A stretch of DNA of 63,251 bases, counting the filler, from Craspedostauros australis (Eukaryota): NCBI GenBank assembly GCA_030167865.1. It is 8 parts of 8 records of this genome, joined end to end, with 100 filler letters (N's around TTAATTAATTAA, not from the genome) between each part and the next. Parts side by side here need not be neighbours in the genome. Positions count along the whole stretch, not along the records: positions 53,392 to 57,575 come from JALAGF010005992.1; 7 more parts are not named here. One strand, 5' to 3'. The notes beneath the pieces are model-generated. The model worked only from the letters and a program-made list of their open reading frames with translations, had not been told where the DNA came from and did not search any database. Shown here one piece after another: positions 12,219 through 62,320 of the stretch (position 1 is its first letter; every line of letters starts with the position of its first letter). The position numbers were made by a program, and so were the translations under genes.

Positions 12219-12452
12219 GCAACGCGATGGAGAGTGGATATGATCGTGAAAGGATGTTCAAAGTTGGATGTTGGATGGGAGACGGTATGGCAACATCTCT
12301 TGATGAGGATGTGATGGCATTGCGCATTGTGGCAGTGCGTACGTACTTTGGGGTATTGCCACCAAACGCTCTCACCACATGACATGGAGCGAGTTTGGAA
12401 CAACAACGAAGACAGATCAAAGGAGAGAGAAGAATTCTGCCACTTCAACCAG

Positions 12453-14579: not shown

Positions 14580-14844
14580 GTAACGTGATGGATAGTGGGT
14601 ATGGCCGTGAAAGGATGATCACTGTTGGATGGAAGTGGTTGTGAAAGTGCGGACGATGGTGGAGGGGCCGTACGGTAGTATGCGATTTATCGTGTGTACC
14701 ATTGTGTATGAGCGTGCTCTCTCCATGAGGTTGTGATCGCATCACAGATGATGCAATTGCCACGATCATCGTCGCCATGTGCGTTCTTGTTCACAGTGTG
14801 GTCGTGTGATGGGTGTGGATGACATGTGAACAGAATCCAATCAC

Positions 14845-28839: not shown

Positions 28840-28939
28840 NNNNNNNNNNNNNNNNNNNNNNNNNNNNNNNNNNNNNNNNNNNNTTAATTAATTAANNNNN
28901 NNNNNNNNNNNNNNNNNNNNNNNNNNNNNNNNNNNNNNN
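28840..28939. other. Artificial contig-joining linker (N44-TTAATTAATTAA-N44); also at 34872-34971, 37994-38093, 47122-47221, 50132-50231, 53292-53391, 57576-57675
   Basis: The same 100-nt structure occurs seven times and puts stop codons in all six frames. Confidence 0.95.
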
Positions 28940-37993: not shown

Positions 37994-38093
37994 NNNNNNN
38001 NNNNNNNNNNNNNNNNNNNNNNNNNNNNNNNNNNNNNTTAATTAATTAANNNNNNNNNNNNNNNNNNNNNNNNNNNNNNNNNNNNNNNNNNNN

Positions 38094-43000: not shown

Positions 43001-43091
43001 GGTTGCCACGGAGCACGGCGTGAGTCAACACCATGTTGGAGAGGAAGAGAACAGCCACGATGGGTGCCTTCATGTTGATCATGCGGATCAT
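40089..43091 (-). CDS. Large secreted Cys-rich protein with two homologous Cys-repeat domains separated by Pro-Ser repeats
   Basis: Signal peptide MKAPIVAVLFLSNMVLTHA (start at 43091 or 43073), LRG/RIL propeptide motifs, repeated (A/S)CxGxx(A/S)C units, and 32-aa PSEEPSHVPSALPSEQPSHxPSEMPSDIPSSL repeats. Confidence 0.8.
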   Translation of the reverse strand: MIRMINMKAPIVAVLFLSNMVLTHAVLRGNRTPMDPTEELHMMMMKTRILKVGADDNEKAAKQNKADREPPTDNPGTPETSAPTALPTGSPTGLISEMPSMAPVAQPTASPTSQPTLLPTSKPSAAPVVFDSTIEVVCRPDGNTALTTTLTTQEASAKTIICNANKPSCREAISAVKESEQLQNFFGCAGDLGEGAARKLFNKYASHDMLAGQLALVAATNVILVTERPDAMKAACAAIAAMQSPAVADPCCQGSSGCTSVTGSASNSPPFMTIAITACTGDSACKDMGPNSLILDSSCTGDSACELINENEINPFTTGVTFVGEMACTTPQSCEGVGRRSHGDVTIQTGACIGSEACNAAGRRVEQSAPSFRFRSHIDIGPNACVGSNACKDAHSTVNHGTAGKPAGSLTIGAAGCAADGSCEKMGFSDRMRTDIIVPPGGCGSVEGCRGCMTKTECSPDEFYFISDVDGACPKGSSSSGGNPTGDKVEKYCIGKDTLPTDCPTFSPTPFPTPLTASPTSSPSNSPSRTPSYFPSGSPSQVPSEMPSAQPSQLPSDEPSDIPSSLPSNTPSRVPSEEPSHVPSALPSEQPSHLPSEMPSDIPSSLPSEEPSHVPSALPSEQPSHVPSEMPSDIPSSLPSEEPSQEPTRTNSPTLTPASFIVGCLATPGDDTSMFISITGDVFCDDAAGTCAKFVTAVDALGDKGKMVKSIFGCDGANPPQPVTLAVAQERFDKIKNDESVTTALLAIIDENKKLFTGSASVVTTACDSCCSGSEACIIDPADGSVMTVSSGSCIGVRACKSTRPNAIILDSCKGDNSCLILGNFPGLQPAAGVPVGFRVIGPRACVAEQSCNVIGRNIFGNIRVEEGACDAFNACTAIASRTHQGSEPMPPVVANVFIGKDACKGTSACFEFHRSQTTKLAGDVIIEAGACSGERTCQTLGNSDIATNDILIRSGICTTLSPCIGCAKGKLCMSTTETYVVDEFNVDCPGPVQSACEVL

Positions 43092-46000
43092 GGTTGCTGT
43101 TTGCTGCTTGTCGGTTGCTTGGATTGTGTGCTGCGATTCATTTTCGTGTTGGACACGGATAGAGCAGCGCAGCGTAGAGCAGAGCAGTGTGAAGTACGGG
43201 AGCAAAAGTGCTCGTACCGGTGGGATACGAGAGGTGTGGGATTGAGTTGAGTTGGGCAGAGCAGCGGAACGTGGCAGCAGTGTATTGGGCAGACCAGAGT
43301 CGAGCGGAGTTGGAGGCGATGGCGCCGTATGCCATCAACATACAAAGCAAGCATATGGTCGGAATGACAAGCGTGGAGACGCGTGGAGTCGTTACACACC
43401 ACGCCTCCCATGACGATGGCAGCTGATTCGGTAGGAGCGTCCTCCCTAGATGCTGCCGGCGATGCTGATGCTCTCGATGTGTGCATCTCTTTGAAGCAGC
43501 ACGCTGTGTCGGGTAGGACGAGTGCTGCGAACGAATCCTCCCGTCATTGGCTCCTCGCCATGCAGACGTTCATTCATCTTGCAAACCTGCGTCTGTAATC
43601 GACCGACGAGCGGAACGTACCTTTGGTTTGCATCTGGCTTTGGCGGGAGAGAGTCTTGTGATCACGTGGCAATGCTTGTCGATTGCTGTGTTGTGATGCT
43701 GCGCTTCGAAGGACAATTTGTTCGTCGATTGTTTTTTGTACAGATGTTGTGTGAATCCGTCGGAGGCAGGGAAGCGATTGTCGCAGACGCAAATCCACAC
43801 GCACATGCAGTGAGAGACGCAGAGAGGAATAGTGCGATGGACACTGTGATTTTGTTGTTACACCAACGACAGATGCACACTCCTCCCTCCACTACTCTGC
43901 TCGTGCGTGCACACTCACACACACCTTGTGGAGAAAAGTATGTGGAGAGGCATTGCTTGTTCGTTCATCCAATCCTCAAGATCTCTTCAACAAGGTCCAC
44001 CAAGGTGATCCACACCAATAACGTCTGGTTCCAAAACAAAGAGACTCGTTCCAGCCCAGTCGGCGTGTGTGCATGGTATTCGTGCGAATTGGAGGAGTTC
44101 TGCGCCGTTTCGTTTGCGCTCGCGTTGTTTGCATGGTTGGTAGAAGTTGCGCTCTGGTGCATCAACGCTGGGATTGATCGGCCCCACCAGTTTCCACTAG
44201 CGACACGAAAGGCTCAGACGAGCACGCCCGAGTCCTTGCGCGTTCACCACCGTGTTTCTATTTTCTCCATGGCCACCTTCAGTCATTTCGAATTGTGGTC
44301 TCACTGGTCTTTTGTCACAACCACTTCTCGCGGAGAGGCCCACCGTTGCCGGAAACCAAAAGAAGGACCAACGCAAACCCCAGAACAGCATCAACCAACA
44401 GTTTTACGGACACAAAAATCCTTCCGCGATAATGCCGTGTGGAAGTCGGAAGCACATTCCCTTGACCACCTCAACTAACCGATGCGAACAAACAGGAGGT
44501 GACAACTGCGGCACATCGATACGAATGTGTCACACCAACGTCGAGTGGCAACTTGTCGCATGAGGACCCGAAATCTATCTGGGCGTATGCTTGTACCCAG
44601 ATTTGTTCGTGATTTCGTCGCCGCAAATTCTGACAAAGTAGTTCTCCGACCGGCTCCATTCTCCCGATCCGGACATTCGCCAGATAAAAGCAACCAGATC
44701 GAGGAAGGTGCGCCAAAGCGACAACGTGTGTCATCGCGTCGTGTGTGGCCAAACTGCCGCGATCCGATGCAATGGTGGAAGACGGAAACATACAGGAATG
44801 CAACACGAGAGAGCCAAAGCAATGGATGGAATCGTCAAGAGTGATGTTGCACTCCAATGTGCACCATGCAGTATACTCGGAGATGCTGGAGTCGAACGGT
44901 CCTCTCAATCATTCCAGACAAATGTTCTGTCTCTCTCAGAGCAACTCTGCCATCCCAACAAGCAGCGCGAGAGCAGCGACATTCGTACCAGAGTCATGAT
45001 TAGCAACAACAGTAGTGACATTGACGACGTCATCACCAATGGCAGCGCATCATGAGCGTGTGCGCGATGAGGACCAAAACCAAGACCAACCCCAAGCGCT
45101 CATCGCCATGTTCGTCATTGATGTTTTCTGTCAAGTGTGGTCTCGACAGAGATGGAAAAGCCTGGCTCCGAGTCGCGCAAGAGCGAAGGAAAACTTGTGC
45201 GCCTAACGTCGACAAGTGACTTGACGAGACGACGGAAAAGGGAATTGGGCGCGGCAACATCCCAGCGCCTTCAAGGCGCAGCAATTCCGACTTGCGGCTC
45301 GCAAGGAAACATCAACGTTCGAAACAGGGAGCTGGGGAAATGCAGTCATGCAAAAAAGGGAGAAATTCTGAATTTGTTCACGGATTTTGCGCACATTAGA
45401 CTGATACGACCCAAATGTTGTCGTTAATTGTGTCGAGATTTGGCATGACGTCACCGACCAGACGAAGGCGGGACTCGGATCGAGACTGAAAACTCACGGA
45501 GGTCAGATGAATCGTGTGTCTGTACCACGACCGAAACTGTGACCGAATGTAGTGGTCTCAATACTTTACCCCAGTGTGCAGAATGCAAGATTGAACATGA
45601 CACTTGCAAACACCTTGACATTGGAGGACNNNNNNNNNNNNNNNNNNNNNNNNNNNNNNNNNNNNNNNNNNNNNNNNNNTCTCAATACTTTACCCCAGTG
45701 TGCAGAATGCAAGATTGAACATGACACTTGCAAACACCTTGACATTGGAGGACTCCCCATGTGTGTCCTTATGTGTTCAGATTCGGAACATCAACATTGC
45801 AATCTGTGAGCCAGATGGAATCACAGATGAATGCGCCAATGGTTCCGAGTACGAATGGGATTGCTCCATAACCGGAAGCAACATGGATACACAAGATAAG
45901 ATCAGCAGAGTGGCTGATGTACAACACGAGATCACGATGAACAGAGCAGCAGAGAGAGAGAGAGCAGAATCGGAAATAGAATAGCTCATAAAACTGACAG

Positions 46001-46458: not shown

Positions 46459-47221
46459 TCACGATTCATTCGTGAAGCCTCGTGACACTCCGGATGAAAA
46501 ATGACACTTGTGGTTTGATCGAGGCGATGTCATCACACAACAGGGCAAAGGCGGAAAGGCTTCCATTTCTGTCCATATTTTGTTGGCACTCTTGCCATCC
46601 ACTATCCATTATCCATCAGTCACCATGCAATCAAACACAACTGAAAGACCAACAAGCTGAGCAGCAAGCATCGGAGGAAGGCAGCGAGGCGGAGGAAGCG
46701 AGGGAAGCCGCACCACAACAACCATGAGCAGCAGGGGAGAGCACCAAGGCGGAGGCAGCAAGAAAAGCACCACCACGAGTGTCGAGATGTATGTTGGCAA
46801 GTTCCGCTCACGGTAACCTACGATCGTGGAAGATGGTGGTGGTTGATAGTCGTCTGTTTGCTATTTCATTAGTTGGCTNCTCCGATNCTCTNNNTGTACA
46901 CCAGTTGTCTTGCCCGATGCTCTCNGCGCTTCAATCTGTTTCGTAGATTCAGTCTCCGACTATGAGTCGGTACGCGAGATCCTCTCTCGCTCCTCTCTGT
47001 ATTCTCTCTCTCTCTCTTTCTCAACATCATGTGCTCATGCTACACGATACTCCGTGTTCGATGCGTGCTCTGCATTCGACACTCCGTTCATTCAGTACTG
47101 GCTTCTACTCCATGAGTACTTNNNNNNNNNNNNNNNNNNNNNNNNNNNNNNNNNNNNNNNNNNNNTTAATTAATTAANNNNNNNNNNNNNNNNNNNNNNN
47201 NNNNNNNNNNNNNNNNNNNNN

Positions 47222-50131
47222 AAAACCATCAACACTCTCCCGGATCTGGTGTTTGGCCTTCCATCATTCCGGCCTTGCACCTCGTAGGATCTCCAGGTCT
47301 GTAGTTTCGCTCGCTCTCTCTCCATCTTGGATGACCCTCTCCCAGCTTGCGGAACTGCCAGACGAGTTGGATGTCTCTCACGTTGGTTCGCAGGTGTCAC
47401 ACGCCGTTCATTCGCCTGATGCACATCCACCATCTCGAAGTCATCCATGCCCTCATTTCCATCCGAATCAGAGACAAGCCCAGGATCNNNNNNNNNNNNN
47501 NNNNNNNNNNNNNGGACATGGTCGGTTGGGTCCGCCATCACACCGCTCTCATCGTCCGAAATGACATGAGGAAGTTCATCGATGCTGACCATCTTTGGAA
47601 TCTTGGTGGTTACCGCTCTCTCCCCAGTGGACGGAGTCATCATCAGTGGAACATCCGCATCGACCACAGCCTTCTCATCTGGGACTGCGGCTGCAGTTGC
47701 TGCTGGTGTTGGATTGGATGCAGGCTCATGTTGTGCAATGATCTCCACACTGTCCACGACCCCTGCTCCATGCCACTCCATCCAGTTCAGGTCTCTGGAC
47801 ATCACCACCTTGTTGGTATCAACCTTCAGCATCCGGTAGGTATCGCCTGCATGGTTGTCAGCATAGCCCAGCATCACCGTTTTGAATGCTTTTGGTGTAA
47901 GCTTCGGCTTCTTGGCGCGATCCGTTACGTATCCGACGCGTCCCCATTCCATCAGATGCGGATAGAGCTTGGGATTCTGGCCGTAGAAGGTTTCATCTGG
48001 ACTCTTGTCATTGCCTGTCGTGACCGTCAGGTTATGGAGCCGGGTTGCCGTGTGGATTGCCTCCGCCCAAAGCCGTCCTTGTGCCTCATCAGTGNNNNNN
48101 NNNNNNNNNNNNNNNNNNNNNNNNNNNNNNNNNNNNNNNNNNNNGAAGTTCATCGATGCTGACCATCTTTGGAATCTTGGTGGTTGCCGCTCTCTCCCCG
48201 TTGGACGGAGTCATCATCAGTGGAACATTCGCGTCGGCCACAGCCTTCTCATCTGGGACTGCGGCTGCGGCTGCTGCTGGTGTTGGACTGGATGCAGGCT
48301 CAGGTTGTGCAATGATCTCCACACCGTCCACAACCCCTGCTCCGTGCCACTCCATCCAGTTCAGGTCTCTGGACATCACCACCTTGTTGGTATCGACCTT
48401 CAGCATCCGGTAGGTATCGCCTGCATGGTTGTCAGCATAGCCCAGCATCACCGTTTTGAATGCTTTCGGTGTNNNNNNNGGCTTCTTGGCGCGATCCGTT
48501 ACGTATCCGACGCGTCCCCATTCCATCAGATGCGGATAGAGCTTGGGATTCTGGCCGTAGAAGGTTTCATCTGGACTCTTGTTGTTGCCTGTCGTGACCG
48601 TCAGGTTATGGAGCCGAGTTGCCGTGTGGATTGCCTCCGCCCAAAGCCGTCCTTGTGCCTCATCAGTGAGATCAGCATCCAACATGAGCGCCAGTGCCGA
48701 ATCTCGAATCGTCACGAATCCTCTCTCGACAACACCATTCATCATTGGTGTATTGGGGGCAGTGTACTCCAGTTGGATTCCGTGCTCGTCACAGACCTTC
48801 TCCAGCTTCCCTTGGTTCTCACCAGCGTTGTCACACCGAATGGCCTCCACCTTCAGGTCCGCACCTNNNNNNNNNNNNNNNNNNNNNNNNNNNNNNNNNN
48901 NNNNNNNNNNNNNNNNNNNNNNNNNNNNNNNNNNNNNNNNNNNNNNNNNNNNNNNNNNCCACGATCAACAGCCAGTAGTTGCTTCCTTTGGCCGTCTTCT
49001 TGTATGGACCAGAGATGTCCAGGTATAGGCGTTGAGCGATGTTGGTAGCCTTCTCAAAGGCCTTCTTCCGCACTCCCTTCGCCTTTGCTTTTGCCTTTGC
49101 ACACGCCTCACATGCTCTCCAAGTCCCAGTGAGTGACCAGCCTGCCTTTGCTGCTGTCAGCTTGGTGTAGCGCTCGTTTGGATGCCCCAGGATGCGATGA
49201 GCTCGATTGACATCCATGGTGCTCTTCCTCTCCACAGTTCCCGTGGCCATGATGGATTCCGTTGGCTTCCCCTTTGACTTGCATTTGAGGAAGTACAGGT
49301 TGCCGTCTCCATTGTCCTCTTCATGTTGGAACTTCAGACTGATGTTGGCGCTTGGATGCTTCAAAGTGATATCATCCTTGCCTCCACTGAGCGTGCATCC
49401 CTTCTCCAGGAATTGGGGAATACTGATGATGTTGTGCGCGAATCCTGGGACCACGAAGACTGACTTCAAGATGAACTCGGTACCATCCAGACACTCTCCA
49501 TGGAATTCCCCCACATGGGTTGGTGTCACCATGTTGCGGTCTCCCACCTGCACCTGTCTGTCGTCGGTGACCGCCNNNNNNNNNNNNNNNNNNNNNNNNN
49601 NNNNNNNNNNNNNNNNNNNNNNNNNACTGATGTTGGCGCTTGGATGTTTCAAAGTGATATCATCCTTGCCTCCACTGAGCGTGCATCCCTTCTCCAGGAA
49701 TTGGGGAATGCTGATGATGTTGTGTGCGAATCCTGGGACCACGAAGACTGACTTCAAGATGAACTCGGTACCGTCCAGACACTCTCCATGGAATTCCCCC
49801 ACATGGGTTGGTGTCACCATGTTGCGGTCTCCCACCTGCACCTGTCTGTCATCGGTGACCGCCACCAGATCTGTGATCCCTTCGGTTGACCAGGTCACAT
49901 GNCATGTAGCTCCGGTGTCAGCCAGCCACTTGTTCTTGTCTCCAGCCTGCCTGCCATCTGTCCCNGTTACATGAGATATNGCTGCCATACCAACNAACAT
50001 TCCAGAGTGGGTGTTCCCAGATCCTCCTGCTTGTCCGCCCTGTCCGTTCTTCTCCGGACAATCCTTGGCCTTGTGCCCTTGCTTCTTGCATCTGTAGCAC
50101 TTGATTCGTTGGAGGTAGTCATTGTTGTTGG
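47222..50131 (-). mobile_element. Ty1/Copia retrotransposon fragment A: zinc knuckle, protease, GAG-pre-integrase, integrase (with gap-flanking duplications)
   Basis: CYRCKKQGHKAKDC, WLADTGAT, AHRILGHP...CEAC, IRCDNAGE, YTAPNTPMMNGVVER, LWAEAIHTA, and the SH3 MLGYADNHAGDTYR. Confidence 0.92.
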
Positions 50132-50231
50132 NNNNNNNNNNNNNNNNNNNNNNNNNNNNNNNNNNNNNNNNNNNNTTAATTAATTAANNNNNNNNNNNNN
50201 NNNNNNNNNNNNNNNNNNNNNNNNNNNNNNN

Positions 50232-53200
50232 CTTTGGGGACTGGAACCATGTTCACACCCAACACAAAGCCACTGTGCGTTGCCATGATCCGGTCAAACC
50301 GGATGCGCTGTCCATTCTTCTCCAATGCGATGATGACACCTTTGTTACTGATGTCGAACCCATTCTGGAGTGCTTTACCGATGCTGAGGAGATTCACCCA
50401 AAGCTTCGGCACGTACCTCACTCCCTTCAGGATGATGATGGCGCTCTTGCCATCCTTCTGCAACACTTTCATGCGTAAATCTCCGACCTTGGTGGCACGC
50501 AAGAATTTACCGCTTCCGACCTTCACCGAAAAATTAGAGAGGCGCACATTAGTCATGCCCTCATCGTTATTCGTGAGGTGGCATGATGCACCTGTGTCAC
50601 CCAACCATGTGTTTGCTTCATGCTGGTCTGGCGCGATGAGCTTGCGGCTGCTGCTGCTCGCCTTGAGGTCCCCGACCACCATGGCCAAGTCATAGCCTCG
50701 AGTAGCCATCGCGATGTGGTCCGCCATCTCCAGTCGGTACTGCGGACTCCCCACACGGGGTCCCTTCTTTGGCAACTCGCGACATTCTATTCCGTCGCGT
50801 ACTTCGGTGTCTTCCCAATTGTACATCCACATGAGTCGCTGAGCTGACATTTTGCTCATTCTTGCGATCAGGTGATTTGGGAGGAGTGGGAGTTGCTTTT
50901 CTTCGAGTAGCTCATTAACCATCACGAGCTTGCATGACATATCGAACATTCCGTTGATGCCGATCTGCGTGAGCATGTAGTAGAGCTCACGAGCGCCCAT
51001 ACACTGTGCTCCTGTTTCGATGGTCGCCTTTCTCACGTCGTAGCATAGAAGCGCTACATTGAAGCGCACATCGTTCGCCTCCAATGCGTTGGATAGGGAC
51101 ACCCTCACGGCGTCCTCCACTGATCCGAATCGACTAAGGATCTCGCGACGGCGAGCAATCTCGGCTTCAGTGCTCGGTGGGAAAGTGTCATCTCCCCAGT
51201 GGGTGCGGATCTTGAATGGATTATACTCGGTGCAATCCGTGCACCATGAGTACATCGCTCCGCGAGTGAGACAGAGTGGGCACCATGCGTCCATTCTGCT
51301 TCCCTCACATGCGCGGTCGACCTCTTCACGCAAGAAGCGATCGATGGGGTTGCCAGTGCGAGCCACTGTTGTTCCTCTCCCACGCGTAGTCGGCGCATCA
51401 TCGAAGTCCATTCCAGGCATCGCAATCTCTTCATTGTCCGCGATGATCTCGTCGATGACGTCGTACTCAATCAGGTCTTCGCCCATGAGCTCGAGGATAT
51501 CGACCTTGCTGTCGTTGGTTGGCGACTCAGCTCTTGCAGCCGGAGAGAATGTTCCCATGAACTCCACGATGTCGTCCTCGTCGTCGCTATCGATCATGAT
51601 CTCGTTATGATCGTTGATTTCGACGAAGTCTCCGTCCGCGATGATGAGCGCCATATCATCCATCGCGTCGTCGCCATCCATTGCCACATTGGCACTTTCT
51701 GCGTCTTTCATCGCTGCCTTCAGCTTAAAGCACTGAAGGATCTTGTGCCCAGCCTTTCCGCAGTAGTTGCACTTGCCATCGAACTGTACCTTCTTGAGTC
51801 CGCCTTTGGCGTTGGCGTGGTGGCCTTGTTTCTTGGCACCGCCGCCCCTCTTGTTGTTGTTGCCGCCCTTGGCTGGCGCACGACAGTCTGCCTTCTTGTG
51901 CCCGTAGGCGCCACAGTTGCGACAGTTTCCCTTGAACTGGCCAACTCCAATCAGTGCGAACTCTTCGCTACCGTTGTTGCCTGCGCGCTTATAACCATGT
52001 TTGAGATGGTGGCGGTCGTAGGTGAGGCTCACGGCTTTGCGGATGTCGCCCACCGTCATCTCTCGTTCCTTTCCTAGGAACTTGAGTTCGAGCAACTTCA
52101 CATCCATCTCGTACTCGCGGCCGAGTGTGTTGAGGACGAGCATGTTGAACTGCTCCACATCGACGATCACCTTCAGGTCGATCAGTCGGTTTCGAAGGAC
52201 CTCCATGTCCGTCAGGAAGAGATCCGGATTCTCTNNNNNNNNNNNNNNNNNNNNNNNNNNNNNNNNNNNNNNNNNNNNNNNNNNGATTTCGACGAAGTCT
52301 CCGTCCGCGATGATGAGCGCCATATCATCCATCGCGTCGTCGCCATCCATTGCCACATTGGCACTTTCGGCGTCTTTCATCGCTGCTTTCAGCTTAAAGC
52401 ATTGAAGGATCTTGTGCCCTGCCTTTCCGCAGTAGTTGCACTTGCCGTCGAACTGCACCTTCTTGAGTCCGCCTTTGGCGTTGGTGTTGTGGCCTTGTTT
52501 CTTGGCACCACCGCCTCTCTTGTTGTTGTTGCCTCCCTTGGCTGGCGCACGACAGTCCGCCTTCTTGTGCCCGTAGGCGCCACAGTTGCGACAGTTTCCC
52601 TTGAACTGGCCAACTCCAATCAGTGCGAACTCTTCGCTACCGTTGTTGCCTGCGCGCTTATAACCATGTTTGAGATGGTGGCGGTCGTAGGTGAGGCTCA
52701 CGGCTTCGCGGATGTCGCCCACAGTCATCTCTCGTTCCTTTCCTAGGAACTTGAGTTCGAGCAGCTTCACATCCATCTCGTACTCGCGGCCGAGTGCGTT
52801 GAGGACGAGCATGTTGAACTGCTCCACGTCGACGATCACCTTCAGGTCGATCAGCCTGTTTCGAAGGACCTCCATGTCCGTCAGGAAGAGATCCGGATTC
52901 TCTCCCTTCTTCAGCCGCATCCCGTTGAGCTCCGCTAGCAACTTTGCCTTCATAGGCGCAGTGCGCTGCTCNTAGATGCGCTCAAGAGCCACCCAAGCTG
53001 CACGAGGGTCTCCTCCCCCGTTCAGCATGCTCTTGCATCCCCACACCGCCTCGAAGGCAACTTTGCCTTCCTTCGAATCATGGCTAATAGCCAAGGTCAG
53101 TTCTTCGTAGGCGTACTTCGCCATCGCTTCCTTGTACTCGGCCAGGTCCGCGGCGCTCGGTTTGGCGCTTGCCTTGCCGCTCGCCTTGGTGCCGGGTTTG

Positions 53201-53291
53201 AGCTTGATACCTGCCTCGGTCTTGATGGTTGGGACCAGGCTCTCGGTAACCTCAGAAGGAGCTTTCACTTCCACCTCAGAGTAGGCCATCA
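50232..53291 (-). mobile_element. Ty1/Copia retrotransposon fragment B: gag with two CCHC knuckles, ~330-aa insert, protease
   Basis: Gag-type ENPDLFLTDMEVLRNRL, CRNCGAYGHKKADC, CNYCGKAGHKILQC, WLGDTGASCH and YVPKLWVNLLSI. The gag segment is duplicated across the gap at 52235-52284. Confidence 0.92.
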
Positions 53292-53391
53292 NNNNNNNNN
53301 NNNNNNNNNNNNNNNNNNNNNNNNNNNNNNNNNNNTTAATTAATTAANNNNNNNNNNNNNNNNNNNNNNNNNNNNNNNNNNNNNNNNNNNN

Positions 53392-56300
53392 GGCCTTGAT
53401 CTGAGCTGTGGGGTCGGGAGGCATCTGGAAGATGGATGGTTGCATCATCGTTGGTCCTCGGTTGCTGGACATGATGTATCCGGACCGAAGACGTCGGGGT
53501 GACGGGTATGCTATCGCTGGTCGGACCTCCGTTCGGGCTCTCTTGTTGGCATTGCTGGTCTCCGGAGTGTCGGGGGTCGATGGTAGGGGATGGTTCGAGG
53601 CACGGAGTTGGCGGGTATTGGTGTTCGCGTACTCATTGTAATTCACGGGTGCCGGGTACGCGGTTGCTACCGGCACGTCATCATCGGTTGGTCCCTCCGG
53701 TGGTGTAGGGACCTCTGGTTGCTCATCCTGGGTTGTGGGAGGCACTGGTTCTGCCGTCTCGGTAGGTTCTTCCACGGTCGTGGTGGGGGCCCTATCTGTG
53801 TTGATGGTCCCACTTGTGGATTTCTTGGCGGACCTGACCTGTTTGATCATCTTGATTCCCGATGTTCCCGAGGAAATGGTGGAGTCCTCGGATTCGTCGA
53901 AGAGCCCCTCTCTTTTGGGACGATTGCTTTGCTTGCTGCTGGCTCCAGAGCTGGGTCGTCGCGACGCTTGGCTTCGTTTGGTCGACTTGCCTTCTGGTCG
54001 GTAGATGGACCCAGAATCGTCACTGTCGCCGGGCTCTGGGACGGATGCGCTGTTCACGGAATGGTCGGCTGGGATCATGGGCTTTGGGCGTACCTTGTCG
54101 GTATACCCTTGTCCATCTCGCGTGGCGGTCAAGATTTTGGACGCTGGTGATGGTCGTGATGATCGTCTGATGGGAGGTCTGGGATGGCTGATCACCGCTC
54201 CGCTTGCGATCTCTGCTTCCATGTCAATCACACTTCCTGGGTCCTGCGATTCTTGGTCTCCATCGTGGTACGTCTCTGATTCAGACTCCTGATGGCTGGC
54301 TTCTTCTGCGGTCATCTTTTCGTCGAAGAATCCGTCAGGGATCTCATCCAGGAACCTGCCTTCTGGTGTCTCTCCCTCTTCGAGACTGGGACGGGTGTCT
54401 TCGAGGGATGGTATCCCATTGACCATCTCATCATCGTCGGTGGGGGGAAAAGGCTCGTTCGCGAGTGCTTTCTTCTCTCGTGCGAGGTTGACGGCGAGGG
54501 TGTCGCTTTGTTTTCGGACCATTCGTGCCTTCCTTGCACGTGTGAGGATGATTGGGATCCGGTTCTTCCTCACCTTGAAGAAGTGGCATATGGATGGCTT
54601 CCGCATGGTTGCGCGGAACTCGTCGGGTGGTTCGCCCCATGCGCCGTCCTGAGCGGAGTAGAAGCACTGGCCATCGGCTATGGCGATGCTGAGGACCTTG
54701 GTGGTTTGGAGGTTGTTATCCAGGTATTCGGAGAGGGTGAGAGGGTAGATGGATTGTTTCTCTACATGGGAAATACGGCCGGCTGGTGTGTTCTCGTTTC
54801 CCTTCGTGCAGAAGATTCGGACTCTGCGGCCACTGTGTCCGACGACGATTCCTTGGAAAGGTCCCTTCTTTCCTGCGGGATATAGCACCCTGGATCCGGG
54901 AACGGGACAATTGATGCCCTTGTAGAACGGGGTGTACTTCGGGAATGTCATCTTGCGTGTCCTCGTCAGGAATGGGGAGAGGTTGTGTCCGGGGTCCTGG
55001 TTGTGACGGCTCCGTTTTTGTGGTGAAAGCATGTTCATGTCGCGGAGTGCAATAGAGGGTGCGGTCGCGTTCCGTGCCAGGTCTTCTTGGAGATCAGCGA
55101 TCAGCATGTCGCACCTGTATGTTTCGTGCTCAGGTGTGACGAAAGCCCGAGGTGTCAGGCCCGTGTGGAAGGAAGTTTCACAGTTGCCTTCTTTGATGGC
55201 TGGCATGGTGACTCCAGGTGGCGGTTTCCGGAACTTGGTCGATGTGGCGACGTGTGATTGGTTCCTTGGCATGATGGGCCCTGTCTCCAGCATGTNNNNN
55301 NNNNNNNNNNNNNNNNNNNNNNNNNNNNNNNNNNNNNNNNNNNNNTCCCTTCTTTCCTGCGGGATATAGCACTCTGGATCCGGGGACGGGACAATGGATG
55401 CCCTTGTAGAACGGGGAGTACTTCGGGAACGTCATGGTGGGTGTTCTTGTTTGTTGCAGGGTGAAGTTGTGTCCGGGATCCTGGTTGTGACGGCTCCGTT
55501 TTTGTGGTGAAAGCATGTTCATGTCGCGGAATGCAATAGAGGGTGCGGTCGCGTTCCGTGCCAGGTCTTCTTGGAGNNNNNNNNNNNNNNNNNNNNNNNN
55601 NNNNNNNNNNNNNNNNNNNNNNNNNNNNNNNNNNNNNNNNNNNNNNNNNNNNNNNNNNNNNNNNNNNNNNNNNNNNNNNNNNNNNNNNNNNNNNNNNNNN
55701 NNNNNNNNNNNNNNNNNNNNNNNNNNTGTGGCGACGTGTGATTGGTTCCTTGGCATGATGGGCCCTGTCTCCAGCATGTCTCTTGGGTAGTAGAGGACGT
55801 CGCTTCCACATGAGGGGTTGATACTCGATAGTGCGCTGAATTCGTCTGTGAGGGCTGATGGTGGTGTGTCGCCACGCCGGATCGTGAAATTGGCGGTTGG
55901 CGCGCCGGCTGGCTCGTGGTTCTGATTCGTGTTACGGTTGTCGGTCATGTCGTATACGACATTGGAATTTCGCGTCTGTTGGCGGTTGGTCGAGGCCGGT
56001 GTGCTCTTGGTGCGCTTGATGGTTCTGGGTGATTTCCTTTGTGCCGTTNNNNNNNNNNNNNNNNNNNNNNNNNNNNNNNNNNNNNNNNNNNNNNNNNNCA
56101 TGATGGGCCCTGTCTCCAGCATGTCTCTTGGGTAGTAGAGGACGTCGCTTCCACATGAGGGGTTGATACTCGAGAATGTGCTAAATTCGTCGGTGAGGGC
56201 TGATGGTGGTGTGTCACCACGCTGGATCAAGAATTTGTCGGTTGGCGCGCCGGCTGGCTCGTGGTTCTGATTCGTGGTACGGTTGTTGGTCATGTCGTAT

Positions 56301-57575
56301 ACGACACTGGAATTTCGCGTCTGTTGGCGGTTGGGCGAGGCCGATGTGCTCTTGGTGCGCTTGATGGTTCTGGGTGATTTCCTTTGTGCCGTTTCGAGGG
56401 GGTTCGGTTCTCGTAGGGTTCTGGTTAGCCGAAGGGTTTTTGATGTCGGGCTGTATTTCATGGAGGTTTGTTGATACCTTGCCATGTTCACACTCATAGT
56501 GTGTTCTTCCTTCGGTGGTGGTGGTTCTTGCGTCTCCGTGGCCATTATATCGGGATCATCGTCTGCTCTGGTCGTCCTGCTCATTGTTATGGCTTGTGAT
56601 ATGGTTTCGCTGTGGTATCCGGACTCATGGATTGAGTTCCGGAATATCGTTCTCGACGTGATGTGGTGGAATGGTGTTTTGGAAAGGGGCTTGGTGAGTA
56701 TGTCGGCGATGTTGTCGACTGACGCAATGTGGGAGAACACGATGATTCCGGCGGCGATGCATTCCCGGATTTGGTGAAAGGCCAATGAGCAGTGTTTCTT
56801 CTTCAGCGTTGAGGATGGAACCGTAGTATTGAGTACCACNNNNNNNNNNNNNNNNNNNNNNNNNNNNNNNNNNNNNNNNNNNNNNNNNNNNNNNNNNNNN
56901 NNNNNNNNNNNNNNNNNNNNNNNNNNNNNNNNNNNNNNNNNNNNNNNNNNNNNNNNNNNNNNNNNNNNNNNNNNNNNNNNNNNNNNNNNNNNNNNNNNNN
57001 NNNNNNNNNNNNNNNTGTTGATCAGTAGAACCACGCCCGTCATTGATTTCCGTGTGACCTGGTCATGGCCATGGTCAGCGTCCACGTAACACGTGATTTG
57101 GACCGGTTTCCCTTTTGGTGCTGGTACTGATATGGGGGTGACCTCAGATGCGGTAGGGTAGAATTCTCTCCAATGGCTTGAGAGGGTGGTGTCGATGTTT
57201 GTGTGGTCCACTGGGTTGGGGTCGCAGAGGATGGCTCCCCTTTCTCGACCTTTGAGGTATCCAATGATACGTTGGATGGTCAAAAGGTGTCCTTNNNNNN
57301 NNNNNNNNNNNNNNNNNNNNNNNNNNNNNNNNNNNNNNNNNNNNNNNNNNNNNNNNNNNNNNNNNNNNNNNNNNNNNNNNNNNNNNNNNNNNNNNNNNNN
57401 NNNNNNNNNNNNNNNNNNNNNNNNNNNNNNNNNNNNNNNNNNNNNNNNNNNNNNNTCTACCATGGGGGTGGATGCCTTCGGGATTGTCTTCCCTACTAGT
57501 TGCTCCACTCGTTTGATGACGTTTCCGATATACGTCTGGGCCGAGAGTCCGATGTTGACTCCCCTGTCCTTCCAG
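53392..57575 (-). mobile_element. Ty1/Copia (CoDi-like) fragment C: RT C-terminus, RNase H and a long in-frame downstream extension
   Basis: LSAQTYIGNVI...ASTPM, CYVDADHGHDQVTRKSMTG, SSTLKKKH and NIADILTKPL. No stop codon after RNase H. Confidence 0.88.
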
Positions 57576-57675
57576 NNNNNNNNNNNNNNNNNNNNNNNNN
57601 NNNNNNNNNNNNNNNNNNNTTAATTAATTAANNNNNNNNNNNNNNNNNNNNNNNNNNNNNNNNNNNNNNNNNNNN

Positions 57676-60525
57676 TCCTCCCACGTTTCATCTCCCTTGA
57701 CTTGCGATCCCGTTGCGTTCGTGATGATCTCATGGAAAGTCTTACTTTGGAGGTCGTCGTCTTGGTCTGCGTTCCTCGCTGACATGGTTTCGGTTGGCGA
57801 TGTCTTGGCATCACCATCCTGTGCAACTTGGGCGGTTGGATTTGGGTTTGCGCTGAAGCTGAATATTGCTTTCTGGTCTCCATCGTGCAGACGTTGTCGG
57901 TTGCGGCGTCTCTGGATCTTCCCGCTTGTTGTTTTGGAGATGGTGCGTTCCTTGACGGCTGCGATTGTGACAGGTGCCAATCCGATGTGCTCCATCACGG
58001 CCTTTCTGATCTCCTGACAGATTGTTGCAGCATCGTCTGTATGGTTGGTTCGGATCTCAAAGACGATCTCGAGCTGTCCATCGTTGCCTGAATCATCAGA
58101 TGAGAATGCCGCGACACATCCTGGACGGACGGCAGATGAGGCCTCTTCAACAGCGTGCTCGATATCTTGCGGGTAGTAGTTCACACCATTGACGATGATG
58201 ATGTCCTTCTTGCGGCCGCAAATGAAGAGATGATCATCTTGGTAGAATCCGTAGTCTCCCGTTCGCAAGTACGTCTTGGTCGAAGGGCGGCCTCCATTGC
58301 TGTCACTGTCAGCGGTGTTCTCGCCATTGCCATTGCCATCGGATGGAGGATCTTGCAGCTTCGCATGAAATTCGTCGGCGGTGAGCTGGGCTTGATTGTA
58401 GTATCCGGCTGCGACAGAGGCCCCGGCGATCCAGATCTCTCCCGTGATATTATCTGGACGTTGCACGCGGGTGTCCGGGTCCACGATGATGATATCAATC
58501 GAGTGGTGTAGAGTATTGCGGTGTGTAATTGCCACAGATGGATGCAGATCTTCACCTTCGCGGATGGTAGAAACATGAAATCCATGCTTGAAACTCACGC
58601 CAACCACGTTCTCCGCAAGACCATACCCAGCCACAAACCATTCCTTGCGCAGGCCGTATGGGCAGAATGCGTCAGAGAAGTGCTTTTCTGTGTCCAGCCG
58701 TGTTGGTTCGGCCGCGTTTTGCAGATGATACACGTTGGATAGGTCGAGGTTCGGGATGGGATGACCTTTTCCAGTCTGCTTGCTCTTGGCCTCGTTGAAC
58801 TTGCGTGTTGCAAGACGGTACGCAAAGTCTGGCGCAGCACTCATGTGGCACTTGTGTCGCGAGATCAGATCAATCCACAGCAGCGGGTTGCTGATAAATG
58901 AGACGGGCGACATCATATGGAGACGGAAGGCACCGGACAAAGGCGCAATGACCATCTGGATCAGACCCATGTCATGGTACTGCGGTAGCCATGAGCATGC
59001 CGTGATTCGCTTTGGTATTTTGCCTCTATCACCCANNNNNNNNNNNNNNNNNNNNNNNNNNNNNNNNNNNNNNNNNNNNNNNNNNGCGCAGGCCGTATGG
59101 GCAGAATGCGTCAGAGAAGTGCTTTTCTGTGTCCAGCCGTGTTGGTTCGGCCGCGTTTTGCAGATGATACACGTTGGATAGGTCGAGGTTCGGGATGGGA
59201 TGACCTTTTCCAGTCTGCTTGCTCTTGGCCTCGTTGAACTTGCGTGTTGCAAGACGGTACGCAAAGTCTGGCGCAGCACTCATGTGGCACTTGTGTCGCG
59301 AGATCAGATCAATCCACAGCAGCGGGTTGCTGATAAATGAGACGGGCGACATCATATGGAGACGGAAGGCACCGGACAAAGGCGCAATGNCCATCTGGAT
59401 CAGACCCATGTCATGGTACTGCGGTAGCCATGAGCATGCCGTGATTCGCTTTGGTATTTTGCCTCTATCACCCACGTCATTTTCAAAGCACTTCAGCCAA
59501 CAGCCATGGAGCAGTTCAACGTTGGCTCTCAGGGCGGCATGCGTCACCATCACACCCTTGGGGTTGCCTGTGCTCCCGGATGTGTACTGGAGGAACGCCA
59601 GATCCGATCCCACCATGTTGGGTTCATCGAATGAAGGCGGCGGCGACGATGAACGGCCAGAGATGAGGCTCGAAAGGAAGCCTTTGTTGGTTTGCTTGTT
59701 CTTGCCGTTGATCTTGCCCGTGATGAAGCCATCATGGCGAATGATGCGATCGGTGACTTGGTACTTCACCCCGCTTGGCCACATGGAGCGGCTCCTGGAT
59801 GTTGGGTTGGCGCGATCGGCGGCTCGAAGGAGATTGATGGATGTTTGGGTGAGGATGAGTGCTGGAGCGCAATCCTCGATCACCTTGTTCATCTTGGTGA
59901 GCGACTTGACAAGCGGAGGTCCGGGAGGGTAGACCAACACGGCTGTTACTCCTGCACGAAGACATCCCAAGAAGACAGCGAAGAAGTGCAGACCGAAGTC
60001 GTAGCAGAGAACGACGCGATCGCCTTTCTTGACGTCCCACTTGTTGCGGAGGAGATGGGCGCATTGGCCGGCTTCATCCCAAAGCTGCTGGAAGGTGTAG
60101 TTGTTGATTGCCTTTCCCTTGTCGTTGTACCAAGTGGAAAAGACGATGTCGGACTTGAGCTCGACGACGAACTTGAGATGGTCGAGGAAGGATTTGTTTT
60201 GGATGGATTTGTGGATGACATCATGCTCGCTGATGACAGCAGGGCTGCTGATGCCGTCGGACGAAGCCAATGTCGTTGATGCCTGCGACGGAGGCAATGA
60301 TTGTGGCTTGATGATGCCGGCTTCGACATCATCTGTGATGTCTGGCAGAGGAGAGTGCTCGTCATTGCTGCTGGATTTGTTGGATGCAGTTGTTGCGACA
60401 TCGCCGGTATTGTCTTCGGCTGTTTGGTTACGGTCGTCGTCGCGCATGATGGAGAGAGGGAAGGTGGGTATGTGAACGGATAGTCGTACTTGATTATGCG
60501 AGATGGATTTGCTCTGTTTCTTCAT
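57676..60525 (-). CDS. Fatty acyl-AMP ligase (FAAL)-domain protein, 3'-truncated, probably multidomain
   Basis: FLQYTSGSTGNPKGVMVTH, WLPQYHDMGLI, YGLAENVV, YLRTGDYGF, GRKKDIIIVNGVNYYPQDIE, KTTSGKIQRR. The frame break is explained by the duplication 58647-59035 = 59086-59474 across an N gap. Start ATG at 60525 or 60447. Confidence 0.88.
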
Positions 60526-60936
60526 TTTGTGACCATCCCTGCGAGTTTGTTGTTGTTGTCCCTGTTGGTTGGTTATCACTGACAGTTGACACAGTTTCCG
60601 ATCAAGGCGGAAACGAGTTGGTCATGTTGGCTCCGGGGCATTTGTCCCTCGAGTCCCTGTGAAGAACATCCCGAAAAGACCGTCATCGGCAACACGAGAT
60701 TCATACGGAGCATTATGACTTCCACATTCAGTTTCCCCTCCTACTGGTCCCCACCACGGTTCGTGCCGGTTCTCGGAAAACGAAACTTCGCAGAACCGCG
60801 TCGTGACTGAATAGAGAGATAAAGTTGGAATTCAATGAGGGACGGACTGATTCGGATTTTTTGGTGTCCCACCCTGGTGCTCGAAATTCAACTTGGCGCG
60901 AAATTGTCCGACTCCGACGATCACAACGCCCACTTT

Positions 60937-62320
60937 TGTCAGGAATCGGGTGTTGTGAACCACCGAATTGCCGCACCTCCCAAGAGCGCGGAGTTGATCA
61001 TTGTGTAATGCTAAATTACCGCACCTCCCAACAGGTCAAGAGTCAGGAGTCGAATGTCATGAAATGCTACATTACCGCAACGCCCACCTGTGGATCTTTG
61101 TGACAGAAAATGTGAGCTACACGCGTCTTGTGGTGAAGAACGCCACGTGCCGAATGCGAACCATGCCTGACGTTCATGACTCCAATGCAGGAATGCGAAT
61201 CACACGTGTATGTCGCAGGGGGCGGGGATGTTGGAATCGTGACCAACATCACGANACNAGCGACTACGGCCCCCATGTCGCAACCAATGAAAAAGAGTAC
61301 TGGAGGAAGGCCAACATCACGAAGTGTGAGATGGCCTGTGAACGAACCTGAGATGAGGAACATCCAGGAAGCCGGCAAAGTGATCGGCGAAGAAAACATC
61401 AGAAACGACCGGAGAAGATCGGAGATGATCGGAGATGTGGAATGATGAGGAGCTGAGAGAGACCCCACCCAGGGTGCTCCTGTGACGAGTNNNNNNNNNN
61501 NNNNNNNNNNNNNNNNNNNNNNNNNNNNNNNNNNNNNNNNAACGCCCACCTGTGGATCTTTGTGACAGAAAATGTGAGCTACACGCGTCTTGTGGTGAAG
61601 AACGCCACGTGCCGAATGCGAACCATGCCTGACGTTCATGACTCCAATGCAGGAATGCGAATCACACGTGTATGTCGCAGGGGGCGGGGATGTTGGAATC
61701 GTGACCAACATCACGACACAAGCGACTACGGCCCCCATGTCGCAACCAATGAAAAAGAGTACTGGAGGAAGGCCAACATCACGAAGTGTGAGATGGCCTG
61801 TGAACGAACCTGAGATGAGGAACATCCAGGAAGCCGGCAAAGTGATCGGCGAAGAAAACATCAGAAACGACCGGAGAAGATCGGAGATGATCGGAGATGT
61901 GGAATGATGAGGAGCTGAGAGAGACCCCACCCAGGGTGCTCCTGTGACGAGTGGGAAATCGTGATCTGATCGAATGAACTGATCTGTGTGATGCCTACGA
62001 CTCGGCGATGTCTACGCTAACGAAACTATTGGTAGAGGGCAGGAGATGGAATGTCTGAGATGCATGATGAGATGCATGATGAGATGAACCAGTACTGCAA
62101 GATGAGATGTACATGGAGTACAAGCTGCATGACATGATGAAACAGGAGGACAGCACTGCATGAGCAAGGGCAAGACTGTGTGCTACTGTGGATTATGTAT
62201 GCTTTGGCAAATGGAATTGAAAGTGATGAAGATGTTGTACTCACAGTTCCAACAATGCAATAGCAGGAATAGGTAACCAGAGACTACTACTAGAGACTGG
62301 GGTACCCCGGATTTCCAACA
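60937..62320. mobile_element. Solo-LTR-like element with 6-bp flanking direct repeat CACTTT (true length ~920 bp)
   Basis: TGTCAGGAATCGGG...CCGGATTTCCAACA, with CACTTT at 60931-60936 and 62321-62326. The internal duplication 61079-61490 = 61541-61952 spans an N gap. Confidence 0.75.

What the first reader, a model, noticed from the sequence alone, without database searches (positions are those of the whole stretch)
53392..56720. Copia pol reads through RNase H into a very long unknown C-terminal extension
Seen: after the RNase H end motif NIADILTKPL (~56690) the frame stays open with no stop, polypurine tract or LTR for ~190 codons of gap-free sequence (to 56099). Overlapping duplicated segments across the N gaps link it to the ~630-aa ORF 53392-55293, implying about 800 or more extra residues, still open at the contig end. 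The extension is mostly disordered but contains a compact beta-rich block (PVPGSRVLYPAGKKGPFQGIVVGHSGRRVRIFCTKG...ISHVEKQSIYPL). Two diverged variants of this region both remain open. Known: Ty1/Copia pol normally ends just after ADxxTK, and sirevirus env-like ORFs are separated from pol by a stop codon. Inference: this is a Copia lineage with a fused accessory domain (SH3/KOW/Tudor-like, possibly for targeting), or a permuted/head-to-tail element in which gag follows pol.
Basis: partly seen in the sequence, partly recalled or inferred. Interest (0 to 1): 0.8.

Follow-up and report, generated by a model that had tools for sequence, protein, structure and literature searches.

The report
Diatom Copia pol with long tail
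A fragment of a diatom Copia-type retrotransposon keeps its pol reading frame open for about 820 codons past the usual end of RNase H, into real-looking coding sequence with no detectable relatives or known domain, so it is an unusual element whose extra part remains unexplained.

Summary
The window is 8 small scaffolds glued together. The finding lies in one 4184-nt scaffold, 53392-57575, minus strand. It carries the C-terminal RT/RNase H of a Ty1/Copia pol, collinear with RVT_2-bearing pols.

After NIADILTKPL (56713-56684) the frame runs on for 195 gap-free codons. A bridging contig (55727-56048) links it to a 634-codon open block (53392-55295). That makes about 821 extra codons, still open at the scaffold end.

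The extension is not a chance ORF. It has 0 stops against 19 and 16 in the other forward frames, and 0 of 20000 shuffles were stop-free. It shows 3-base periodicity (p=7e-11). Its third-codon-position composition matches the pol part, not 7 host genes. Two diverged copies exist (91-95% nt).

In 32 relatives the tail after ADxLTK has a median of 30.5 aa and a maximum of 276.

The extension is an orphan: 0 hits in 1.84 billion proteins, and nothing in Pfam, PDB or metagenome loci. AlphaFold models were poor (pLDDT 38 and 52), so the SH3/Tudor idea is untested, and the gag-after-pol idea found no support.

Verdict: a new variant of a known kind, of moderate interest, resting on a fragmentary assembly.

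The parts
57456..57575 (-). Block F: C-terminal part of the Copia reverse transcriptase (39 codons); the scaffold begins here
   Evidence: It aligns with P0002 residues 844-881 and with 10 other RVT_2-type pols.
57016..57294 (-). Block E: connection and N-terminal part of RNase H (92 codons, includes YVDADHGHD)
   Evidence: blastp to P0001-P0011 gives E 1e-18 to 1e-28, collinear with blocks F and D.
56639..56839 (-). Block D, codons 1-67: C-terminal part of RNase H, up to the conserved end of pol. The motif NIADILTKPL is at 56713-56684.
   Evidence: It is 55-64% identical to the last 67 aligned residues of the relatives, and homology stops here.
56099..56638 (-). Extension part 1: 180 codons, rich in T, N, R, P, S and Q, apparently disordered, in the same gap-free contig as the RNase H end
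   Evidence: It has 0 stops against 9 and 4 in the other forward frames, and periodicity p=0.014. No relative shares it.
55727..56048 (-). Block C: second copy of the end of extension part 1. It bridges to block A.
   Evidence: 295 nt at 94.6% to D; 53 nt at 100% to the head of A. It is open for 107 codons.
55346..55576 (-). Block B: second copy of A 54862-55092
   Evidence: 91% nt identity with 21 differences; open for 77 codons; in-frame dN/dS 0.39.
53392..55295 (-). Block A: extension part 2, 634 codons, open to the scaffold end
   Evidence: 0 stops against 19 and 16; 0 of 20000 shuffles stop-free; chi2 59.1, p=7e-11. Third-position composition is like the pol part. 0 homologues were found.
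54499..54957 (-). The only less polar stretch of the extension (about residues 113-265 of block A). It includes the block PVPGS...SIYPL at 54739-54906 and a basic stretch KVRKNRIPIILTRARKARMVRK.
   Evidence: Hydropathy and polar-residue windows. AlphaFold gave low-confidence strands only. There is no Pfam, PDB or fold match.

Best explanation
This is the 3' portion of a diatom CoDi-like Ty1/Copia LTR retrotransposon. Its gag-pol reading frame lacks the usual stop about 30 codons after the RNase H motif ADxLTK. Instead it continues for at least 821 codons.

The extra sequence is genuine coding sequence that has evolved as part of the element, not host DNA. It occurs in at least two diverged copies. 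It is lineage-specific (orphan) and mostly polar and disordered, with acidic and basic/NLS-like patches. It contains one stretch of about 150 residues that may fold.

Inferred mechanism:
- The extension is translated as the C-terminal end of the polyprotein.
- It either stays attached to RT-RNase H or is released by the element's protease.
- It acts as an accessory module for nuclear entry or for tethering to host factors or chromatin. In function this would be analogous to, but unrelated in sequence to, the chromodomain that this Copia lineage carries on its integrase.
- Its origin was most likely the fusion of a downstream region or ORF to pol by loss of the stop codon.

Shown: the ORF, its coding character, its element-like composition, two copies, and the outlier tail length.

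Inferred: translation, processing and function.

My odds: about 0.65 that it is an element-borne coding extension, and about 0.35 that it has an accessory function.
For: - Collinear homology of blocks F, E and D to 11 long and 22 short Copia pol proteins. It ends at D residue about 67.
- The RNase H end and 195 further codons lie in one gap-free contig.
- Contig C bridges D and A.
- 0 stops in 634 codons against 19 and 16; 0 of 20000 shuffles stop-free; periodicity p=7e-11.
- Third-position composition and A>T skew match the pol part (AT skew .33-.45 against .23), not 7 host genes (.10).
- Overlap variants are 91-95% identical here, against 99.5-99.7% in the non-TE scaffold. They are therefore separate copies, not alleles.
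- In-frame dN/dS for A against B is 0.39 (0.22 without one variable patch), against 0.71 and 1.47 out of frame.
- Relatives' tails after ADxLTK: median 30.5 aa; 2 of 32 reach 100 aa or more (117 and 276). Tail length is therefore plastic in this lineage, and this element is the extreme.
- No hydrophobic segment; basic and acidic patches are read.
Against: - Nothing at all is homologous to the extension: 0 of 1,835,955,588 representatives, none in two metagenome scans or one viral scan, and none in Pfam or PDB. Conservation beyond this genome is therefore unshown.
- dN/dS between D and C is 0.91 (12 non-synonymous, 4 synonymous changes), which is neutral.
- The RNase H-to-tail junction rests on a single contig of a fragmented assembly whose 50-N gaps are all unmerged overlaps (9 of 9).
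- No LTR, PPT, PBS or ORF end is visible.
- No genome could be consulted.
- The fold is unknown.
Confidence: 0.55

Rival explanations
1. Assembly artefact. Contig D, or the D-C-A chain, is a chimera that joins a Copia RNase H end to an unrelated coding repeat, for example another element's orphan ORF. On this reading no single molecule encodes pol plus extension.
For: - The scaffold is built from six short contigs.
- Every 50-N gap in the window is an unmerged overlap (9 of 9).
- The D-A overlap is only 26 nt.
- The RNase H-to-tail junction is covered by one contig only.
- No genome could be consulted.
Against: - The junction lies inside a gap-free 741-nt contig and is in frame.
- Third-position composition is the same on both sides (.26/.42/.22/.10 against .30/.39/.22/.09 and .25/.40/.23/.11).
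- Contig C, from a different copy, independently spans the D/A joint.
- Two relatives also have long tails (117 and 276 aa).
Confidence: 0.12
2. Captured or co-opted host sequence. Either the element transduced a host gene fragment, or this is a host gene built from a Copia RT/RNase H remnant plus a host-derived C-terminal region. RT-domain genes with added domains have been reported in Phaeodactylum.
For: - PMC5859163 (passages read) reports diatom gene models with RT, RNase H or integrase domains plus extra domains, and speaks of N- and C-terminal extensions.
- The extension has no TE homologue.
Against: - Composition is retroelement-like, not host-like.
- At least two copies are 5-9% diverged, against 0.3-0.5% for the overlaps in the non-TE scaffold.
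- There is no host homologue either.
- The pol pieces seen are intact, with no stops in 258 codons.
Confidence: 0.1
3. Non-functional read-through. The pol stop was lost, and the T-poor (13-15% T) 3' region or a decaying former ORF simply stays open. The tail is tolerated but does nothing.
For: - The minus strand has very low T.
- dN/dS for D against C is 0.91.
- There are no homologues and no domain.
- Tails in relatives are variable and non-homologous.
Against: - 821 stop-free codons, against about 20 stops expected per 634 codons at this composition. That expectation is my arithmetic from the base frequencies; the observed counts in the other forward frames are 19 and 16.
- Periodicity is present along the whole of A (4 of 6 300-nt windows at p<0.05).
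- In-frame dN/dS at the A/B block is 0.39.
Confidence: 0.15
4. Permuted or head-to-tail element. The extension is the gag (and beyond) of a following or rearranged copy, read in frame with pol.
For: - The ORF is still open at the scaffold end, so what follows is unknown.
- gag regions diverge quickly and are often unrecognised by Pfam. The N-terminal region of P0001 has no Pfam hit either.
Against: - No similarity to the polyproteins of 11 relatives, including N-terminal regions (best E 0.14).
- No CCHC knuckle (read).
- No LTR-like direct repeat within the scaffold apart from assembly overlaps.
- The low-confidence models show strands rather than a helical capsid-like domain.
Confidence: 0.04

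Closest known systems
CoDi-type Ty1/Copia retrotransposons of diatoms (Maumus et al. 2009, PMC2806351; clades CoDi-A to D in Llorens et al. 2009, PMC2774666)
   Same: - The host is a pennate diatom: the MOT1 gene in the window is 66% identical to its best hit, a diatom transcriptome protein.
- The RT/RNase H end is 45-64% identical to metagenomic and Nitzschia Copia pols.
- Those relatives have integrase upstream of RT, with a chromo-like module between them.
   Different: - The published CoDi elements are 5.2-8.1 kb (PMC2806351, section 18). The passages I read mention no coding region after RNase H.
- Here at least 2.4 kb of ORF follows RNase H.
- No reference CoDi sequence was at hand, so clade membership was not tested.
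Sireviruses (plant Copia with an env-like ORF after pol; mentioned in PMC9289625; details recalled)
   Same: They are Copia elements with extra coding capacity 3' of pol.
   Different: - From recall, the sirevirus env-like ORF is a separate ORF with transmembrane or coiled-coil features.
- Here there is no stop between pol and the extension.
- There is no hydrophobic segment: the highest 30-aa mean hydropathy is 0.18.
- There is no sequence similarity to anything.
Chromodomain-bearing integrases (Ty3/Gypsy chromoviruses; CoDi-A Copia, PMC2774666)
   Same: They set the precedent that LTR elements, including this diatom Copia lineage, acquire accessory chromatin-reading modules.
   Different: - That module sits at the integrase C-terminus, which in Copia is upstream of RT. 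Here the extra region follows RNase H.
- hhalign of the block against the chromo-like module of 6 of the 11 long relatives gave probability 0.2%.
- Pfam Chromo and Tudor-family profiles do not match.
Additional ORFs and domains in plant LTR retrotransposons (Vicient & Casacuberta 2020, PMC7264820; orchid Gypsy AlkB, PMC9289625)
   Same: They are extra coding regions that are often without a known domain.
   Different: - They are reported mainly for Gypsy elements. PMC9289625 states that no domain gain was seen in plant Copia-type elements (passage read).
- They are usually separate ORFs, not in-frame pol extensions.
RT-containing gene models with added domains in Phaeodactylum (Rastogi et al. 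2018, PMC5859163)
   Same: It concerns a diatom, with RT, RNase H or integrase domains combined with other regions, and it speaks of N- and C-terminal extensions (passage read).
   Different: - Those gene models have recognisable added domains (Chromo, cyclin).
- Here the added region is orphan and appears multi-copy and element-like.

Membership tests
Ty1/Copia LTR retrotransposon | RVT_2-type reverse transcriptase followed by RNase H ending in the ADxxTK motif | tested here: met
   Blocks F, E and D align collinearly with RVT_2-bearing pols. The motif NIADILTKPL is at 56713-56684. Pfam RVT_2 itself does not hit the short pieces, because only the RT C-terminus is present.
Ty1/Copia LTR retrotransposon | Domain order gag-PR-INT-RT-RNase H | not testable with these tools
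   The scaffold starts inside RT. In relatives, sub-threshold rve hits lie upstream of RVT_2.
Ty1/Copia LTR retrotransposon | LTRs, PBS and PPT | tested here: inconclusive
   The only direct repeats in the scaffold are the assembly overlaps. No convincing PPT followed by TG lies after RNase H (read). The scaffold ends inside the ORF.
CoDi-A / CoDi-I (chromodomain Copia of diatoms) | Chromodomain at the integrase C-terminus | not testable with these tools
   This region is absent from the window. One relative, P0008, has a sub-threshold Chromo hit (E 0.0072, 16.7 bits against a cut-off of 25.1) between INT and RT.
CoDi-A / CoDi-I (chromodomain Copia of diatoms) | RT phylogeny places the element within the CoDi clades | not tested
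   No reference CoDi sequences were available in the tools.
Sirevirus-type env-like ORF | A separate ORF after the pol stop, with transmembrane or coiled-coil features | tested here: not met
   There is no stop between RNase H and the extension, and no hydrophobic window (maximum 0.18).
Royal-family / SH3-like barrel (Tudor, chromo, PWWP, KOW) | A profile match to a family model | tested here: not met
   Pfam at E<=10 gave only unrelated noise. No PDB sequence matched at E<=10. hhalign against the relatives' chromo-like module gave probability 0.2%.
Royal-family / SH3-like barrel (Tudor, chromo, PWWP, KOW) | Five-stranded barrel fold | tested here: inconclusive
   AlphaFold gave pLDDT 38.0 (201 aa) and 52.0 (78 aa), with three strands. 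The best Foldseek hit had E 0.36. ESM Atlas neighbours at 0.76-0.80 include KIF2A-N, Spin/Ssty, PWWP and Tudor-knot clusters, all below the tool's threshold.
Copia gag (head-to-tail reading) | Similarity to the gag of related elements, or a CCHC knuckle | tested here: not met
   The best blastp E-value against 11 polyproteins was 0.14. No CX2CX4HX4C motif occurs in the translation.

The most novel reading that the evidence does not exclude
A diatom Copia lineage has added a large accessory polypeptide of more than 800 aa, in frame behind RNase H. This position has no described precedent in Ty1/Copia. Its small ordered core would be a divergent Royal-family (Tudor/PWWP-like) reader flanked by disordered, NLS-bearing linkers. 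It would give the RT-RNase H or pre-integration complex a second chromatin-tethering or nuclear-import device, beside the integrase chromodomain of this lineage.
Probability: 0.12. Interest if true: 0.7.

Novelty: new variant of a known kind. Interest (0 to 1): 0.4.

Why it matters
Copia elements are regarded as architecturally conservative. One survey of plants found domain gains only in Gypsy elements (PMC9289625). The one published Copia exception I found is the integrase chromodomain of diatom CoDi-A (PMC2774666).

A Copia that carries 2.4 kb of extra in-frame coding sequence behind RNase H would show that diatom retroelements also expand at the pol C-terminus. It would also offer a case of how orphan, largely disordered coding sequence arises and persists in a mobile element.

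Copia elements dominate diatom repeat content and respond to stress (PMC2806351, abstract and passages). An accessory module could therefore bear on where and when they integrate. As it stands the case rests on one fragmented scaffold, so its main value is as a pointer for long-read re-examination.

Tried and rejected
- Whole genome: none is held for this window.
- Sequencing runs: none was listed, and no RNA holder was listed.
- Homologues of block A: phmmer against 1.84 billion representatives gave 0 hits.
- Related loci: nothing in metagenome contigs with A or D, and nothing in viral contigs with A.
- Homologues of D: the 11 longer and 22 near-length proteins all match the RNase H part only. 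They cover 20-43% of the query.
- Pfam on all blocks at E<=1 and E<=10: only unrelated sub-threshold rows.
- PDB sequence search: no match at E<=10.
- AlphaFold without an alignment: pLDDT 38.0 and 52.0. Foldseek against PDB on the better model: nothing at E<=0.001, top rows glucokinases at E 0.36-1. This is meaningless given the quality of the model.
- ESM Atlas: residues 60-300 scored 0.77 (noise). Residues 113-190 scored 0.75-0.80 (lead only).
- hhalign of the block against the chromo-like module of 6 of the 11 long relatives (the 6 that a regex could anchor): probability 0.2%.
- Other copies in the window: none.
- Tandem repeats: only two trivial rows.
- Literature: four full-text searches found no description of a Copia pol extended past RNase H.
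- Supplements: the structural table of CoDi elements (Additional file 1 of PMC2806351, a TIFF) and the supplements of PMC2774666 were not opened. They could list ORF lengths that bear on this.
Full report
**What the window is.** The 63251-nt window is not one locus. It is eight small scaffolds joined by N44 + TTAATTAATTAA + N44 spacers. The finding lies wholly in one scaffold, 53392-57575 (4184 nt), with the gene on the minus strand. Six gap-free blocks make it up: F 57456-57575, E 57016-57294, D 56099-56839, C 55727-56048, B 55346-55576 and A 53392-55295.

All nine 50-N gaps in the window are unmerged overlaps of their flanks. The other gap sizes show no overlap. In the non-TE scaffold the overlaps are 99.5-99.7% identical. 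In the retroelement scaffolds they are 91-98% identical.

**Checking the observation.**
- Blocks F, E and D translate without stops. They align collinearly with the C-terminal RT, connection and RNase H of Copia polyproteins. For example, they match P0002 at residues 844-881, 938-1029 and 1089-1197.
- The motif NIADILTKPL is at 56713-56684.
- Homology to all 33 relatives ends about 15-17 residues later, at D residue about 67. One marginal alignment, to P0002, reaches residue 106.
- The frame then stays open for the rest of D, which is 195 codons after TKPL.
- Block A is open for 634 codons.
- The last 26 nt of D equal the first 26 nt of A. Contig C overlaps the D tail (295 nt, 94.6%) and the head of A (53 nt, 100%), so a gap-free contig spans the D/A joint.
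- B is a 91% variant of A 54862-55092. The 150-N gap between B and C is exactly the distance expected from A. So C-gap-B is a second copy running parallel to D+A.
- The extension is therefore about 821 codons long, and it is still open at the scaffold end.

**Is it more than chance?** The minus strand is T-poor (12-18% T), which lengthens ORFs in every frame. Even so:
- Block A has 0 stops, against 19 and 16 in the other forward frames.
- None of 20000 shuffles of the same base composition had a stop-free forward frame.
- The D tail has 0 stops, against 9 and 4.
- Nucleotide composition differs by codon position along the whole extension. For A, chi2 is 59.1, p=7e-11, and four of six 300-nt windows reach p<0.05. 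For the D tail, p=0.014.

So the extension is coding-like sequence.

**Whose sequence is it?** The table gives third-codon-position composition and coding-strand A>T skew. The seven host genes total 11.5 kb and were identified by Pfam.

| Region | A | C | G | T | A>T skew |
|---|---|---|---|---|---|
| pol part | .26 | .42 | .22 | .10 | .23 |
| D tail | .30 | .39 | .22 | .09 | .45 |
| block A | .25 | .40 | .23 | .11 | .33 |
| 7 host genes | .15 | .39 | .30 | .16 | .10 |

The extension therefore shares the compositional regime of the retroelement, not that of host genes. This argues against a recent host-gene capture and against a chimeric join to a host gene.

The two variant pairs differ by 5.4% and 9.1% at the nucleotide level. 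The overlaps in the non-TE scaffold differ by only 0.3-0.5%. So the variants are separate element copies, not alleles.

Selection signals are weak.
- dN/dS for D against C is 0.91 (12 non-synonymous, 4 synonymous changes).
- dN/dS for A against B is 0.39 in frame, against 0.71 and 1.47 out of frame. It falls to 0.22 without one variable patch, but that figure rests on only 7 differences.
- Copies of a transposon diverge largely neutrally after insertion, so these values say little either way.

**How unusual is the length?** Two searches with block D gave 33 relatives. Of these, 32 carry the ADxLTK-type motif and one is cut at it. Their tails after the motif have a median of 30.5 aa. Thirty are under 100 aa, and the two longest are 117 and 276 aa. 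Some of these predicted proteins may be cut by contig ends, so the figures are lower bounds. The tails are not homologous to each other or to this one. Tail length after RNase H is thus plastic in this lineage. This element, at 823 aa or more after TK, is three times the longest relative.

**What is the extension?** I found no relatives.
- phmmer of block A against 1,835,955,588 representative proteins gave 0 hits.
- Two metagenome scans and one viral scan gave none.
- Pfam gave nothing, even at E<=10.
- PDB sequences gave no match at E<=10.
- No other copy is in the window.

The databases lack a close relative of the host. The MOT1 gene in the window is only 66% identical to its best hit, a diatom transcriptome protein. 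Other hits are diatoms at about 50%. Orphan status is therefore less surprising for the disordered parts. A conserved Tudor, SH3 or chromo domain, however, should still have been detectable.

The sequence is mostly polar. In most 30-aa windows 60-90% of residues are P, S, T, G, Q, N, E, D, K or R, and there is no hydrophobic segment. It has acidic and basic patches, and one less polar stretch at about residues 113-265 of A.

AlphaFold without an alignment gave pLDDT 38.0 for 201 aa and 52.0 for the 78-aa block, showing three strands. Foldseek found nothing meaningful. A language-model neighbourhood search on the 78-aa block listed KIF2A-N, Spin/Ssty, PWWP and Tudor-knot clusters at 0.76-0.80. 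That is below the level at which the tool's own controls separate signal from shuffled sequences. I recall, but did not check, that several of these are SH3-like or Royal-family barrels. It is a lead, not evidence.

hhalign against the chromo-like module that relatives carry between integrase and RT gave probability 0.2%. That alignment used 6 of the 11 long relatives.

**The gag-after-pol idea.** There is no similarity to the full polyproteins of 11 relatives (best E 0.14). There is no CCHC knuckle. There is no LTR-like repeat in the scaffold.

**An env-like ORF of the sirevirus type.** This is excluded by the absence of a stop and of hydrophobic segments.

**Comparison with what is known.** The relatives are Copia pols from metagenomes and from a Nitzschia genome. 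Several show a chromo-like stretch between integrase and RT (read). Pfam Chromo is sub-threshold in P0008. This fits the chromodomain-bearing CoDi-A/CoDi-I Copia of diatoms described by Llorens et al. 2009 (PMC2774666, passages) and cited in PMC5348765 (passages).

Published CoDi elements are 5.2-8.1 kb (PMC2806351, section 18). The passages I read mention no coding region after RNase H, but the structural table is a TIFF supplement that I could not read. A plant survey found extra domains only in Gypsy-type elements (PMC9289625, passages). Phaeodactylum gene models combine RT, RNase H or integrase domains with other domains (PMC5859163, passages). Four full-text searches found no report of a Copia pol extended in frame past RNase H.

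**Best explanation and limits.** I read this as a CoDi-like Copia family whose pol has absorbed a long, lineage-specific, mostly disordered coding region behind RNase H. It would be translated as the end of the polyprotein. I put about 0.65 on it being truly element-borne and coding. I put about 0.35 on it having an accessory role such as nuclear import or tethering to host factors or chromatin. That role is inference from composition and position only.

The rivals and my odds:
- Neutral read-through after stop loss: 0.15.
- Assembly chimera: 0.12.
- Host-derived or co-opted chimeric gene: 0.10.
- Head-to-tail gag: 0.04.

No genome and no full-length copy could be consulted, so the junctions and the 3' end remain to be confirmed.

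Noticed in passing
window 28840-28939, 34872-34971, 37994-38093, 47122-47221, 50132-50231, 53292-53391, 57576-57675: The window is a concatenation of 8 scaffolds joined by N44 + TTAATTAATTAA + N44 (a stop in all six frames). Neighbourhood across these joints therefore has no biological meaning.
   Followed up: yes
all nine 50-N gaps, e.g. 48095-48144, 52235-52284, 59036-59085, 61491-61540: Every 50-N gap is an unmerged overlap of its two flanks (34-619 nt). Identity is 99.5-100% in non-TE sequence and 91-98% in retroelement sequence. This creates apparent tandem duplications in ORFs across the gaps.
   Followed up: yes
relatives P0001-P0006, P0008 (not in the window): Related Copia polyproteins carry a chromodomain-like stretch between integrase and RT. 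Pfam Chromo is sub-threshold in P0008 (E 0.0072, residues 573-622). This is consistent with the CoDi-A chromodomain integrases described in PMC2774666.
   Followed up: partly
window 47222-50131 and 50232-53291, minus strand: Two other scaffolds hold gag-protease-integrase pieces of Copia elements with CCHC knuckles. The CoDi-like pols do not hit them. They seem to belong to a different Copia lineage. The 50232-53291 scaffold has a long non-canonical region between gag and protease.
   Followed up: no
window 10557-12257 and 12918-14618, minus strand: Two tandem 567-aa ORFs each end in a DUF6824 domain (E 2.5e-20 and 6.8e-19). This looks like a recent tandem gene duplication.
   Followed up: no
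window 57679-60621, minus strand: An AMP-binding / DIP2-like acyl-activating enzyme gene is split by a 50-N overlap gap.
   Followed up: no
window 40092-43334, minus strand: A 1081-aa ORF with PT disordered repeats and DUF7640.
   Followed up: no
window 55577-55726: This 150-N gap equals exactly the distance between the matching points in block A (55092 to 55243). The non-50 gap sizes in this assembly may therefore be exact rather than estimated.
   Followed up: partly
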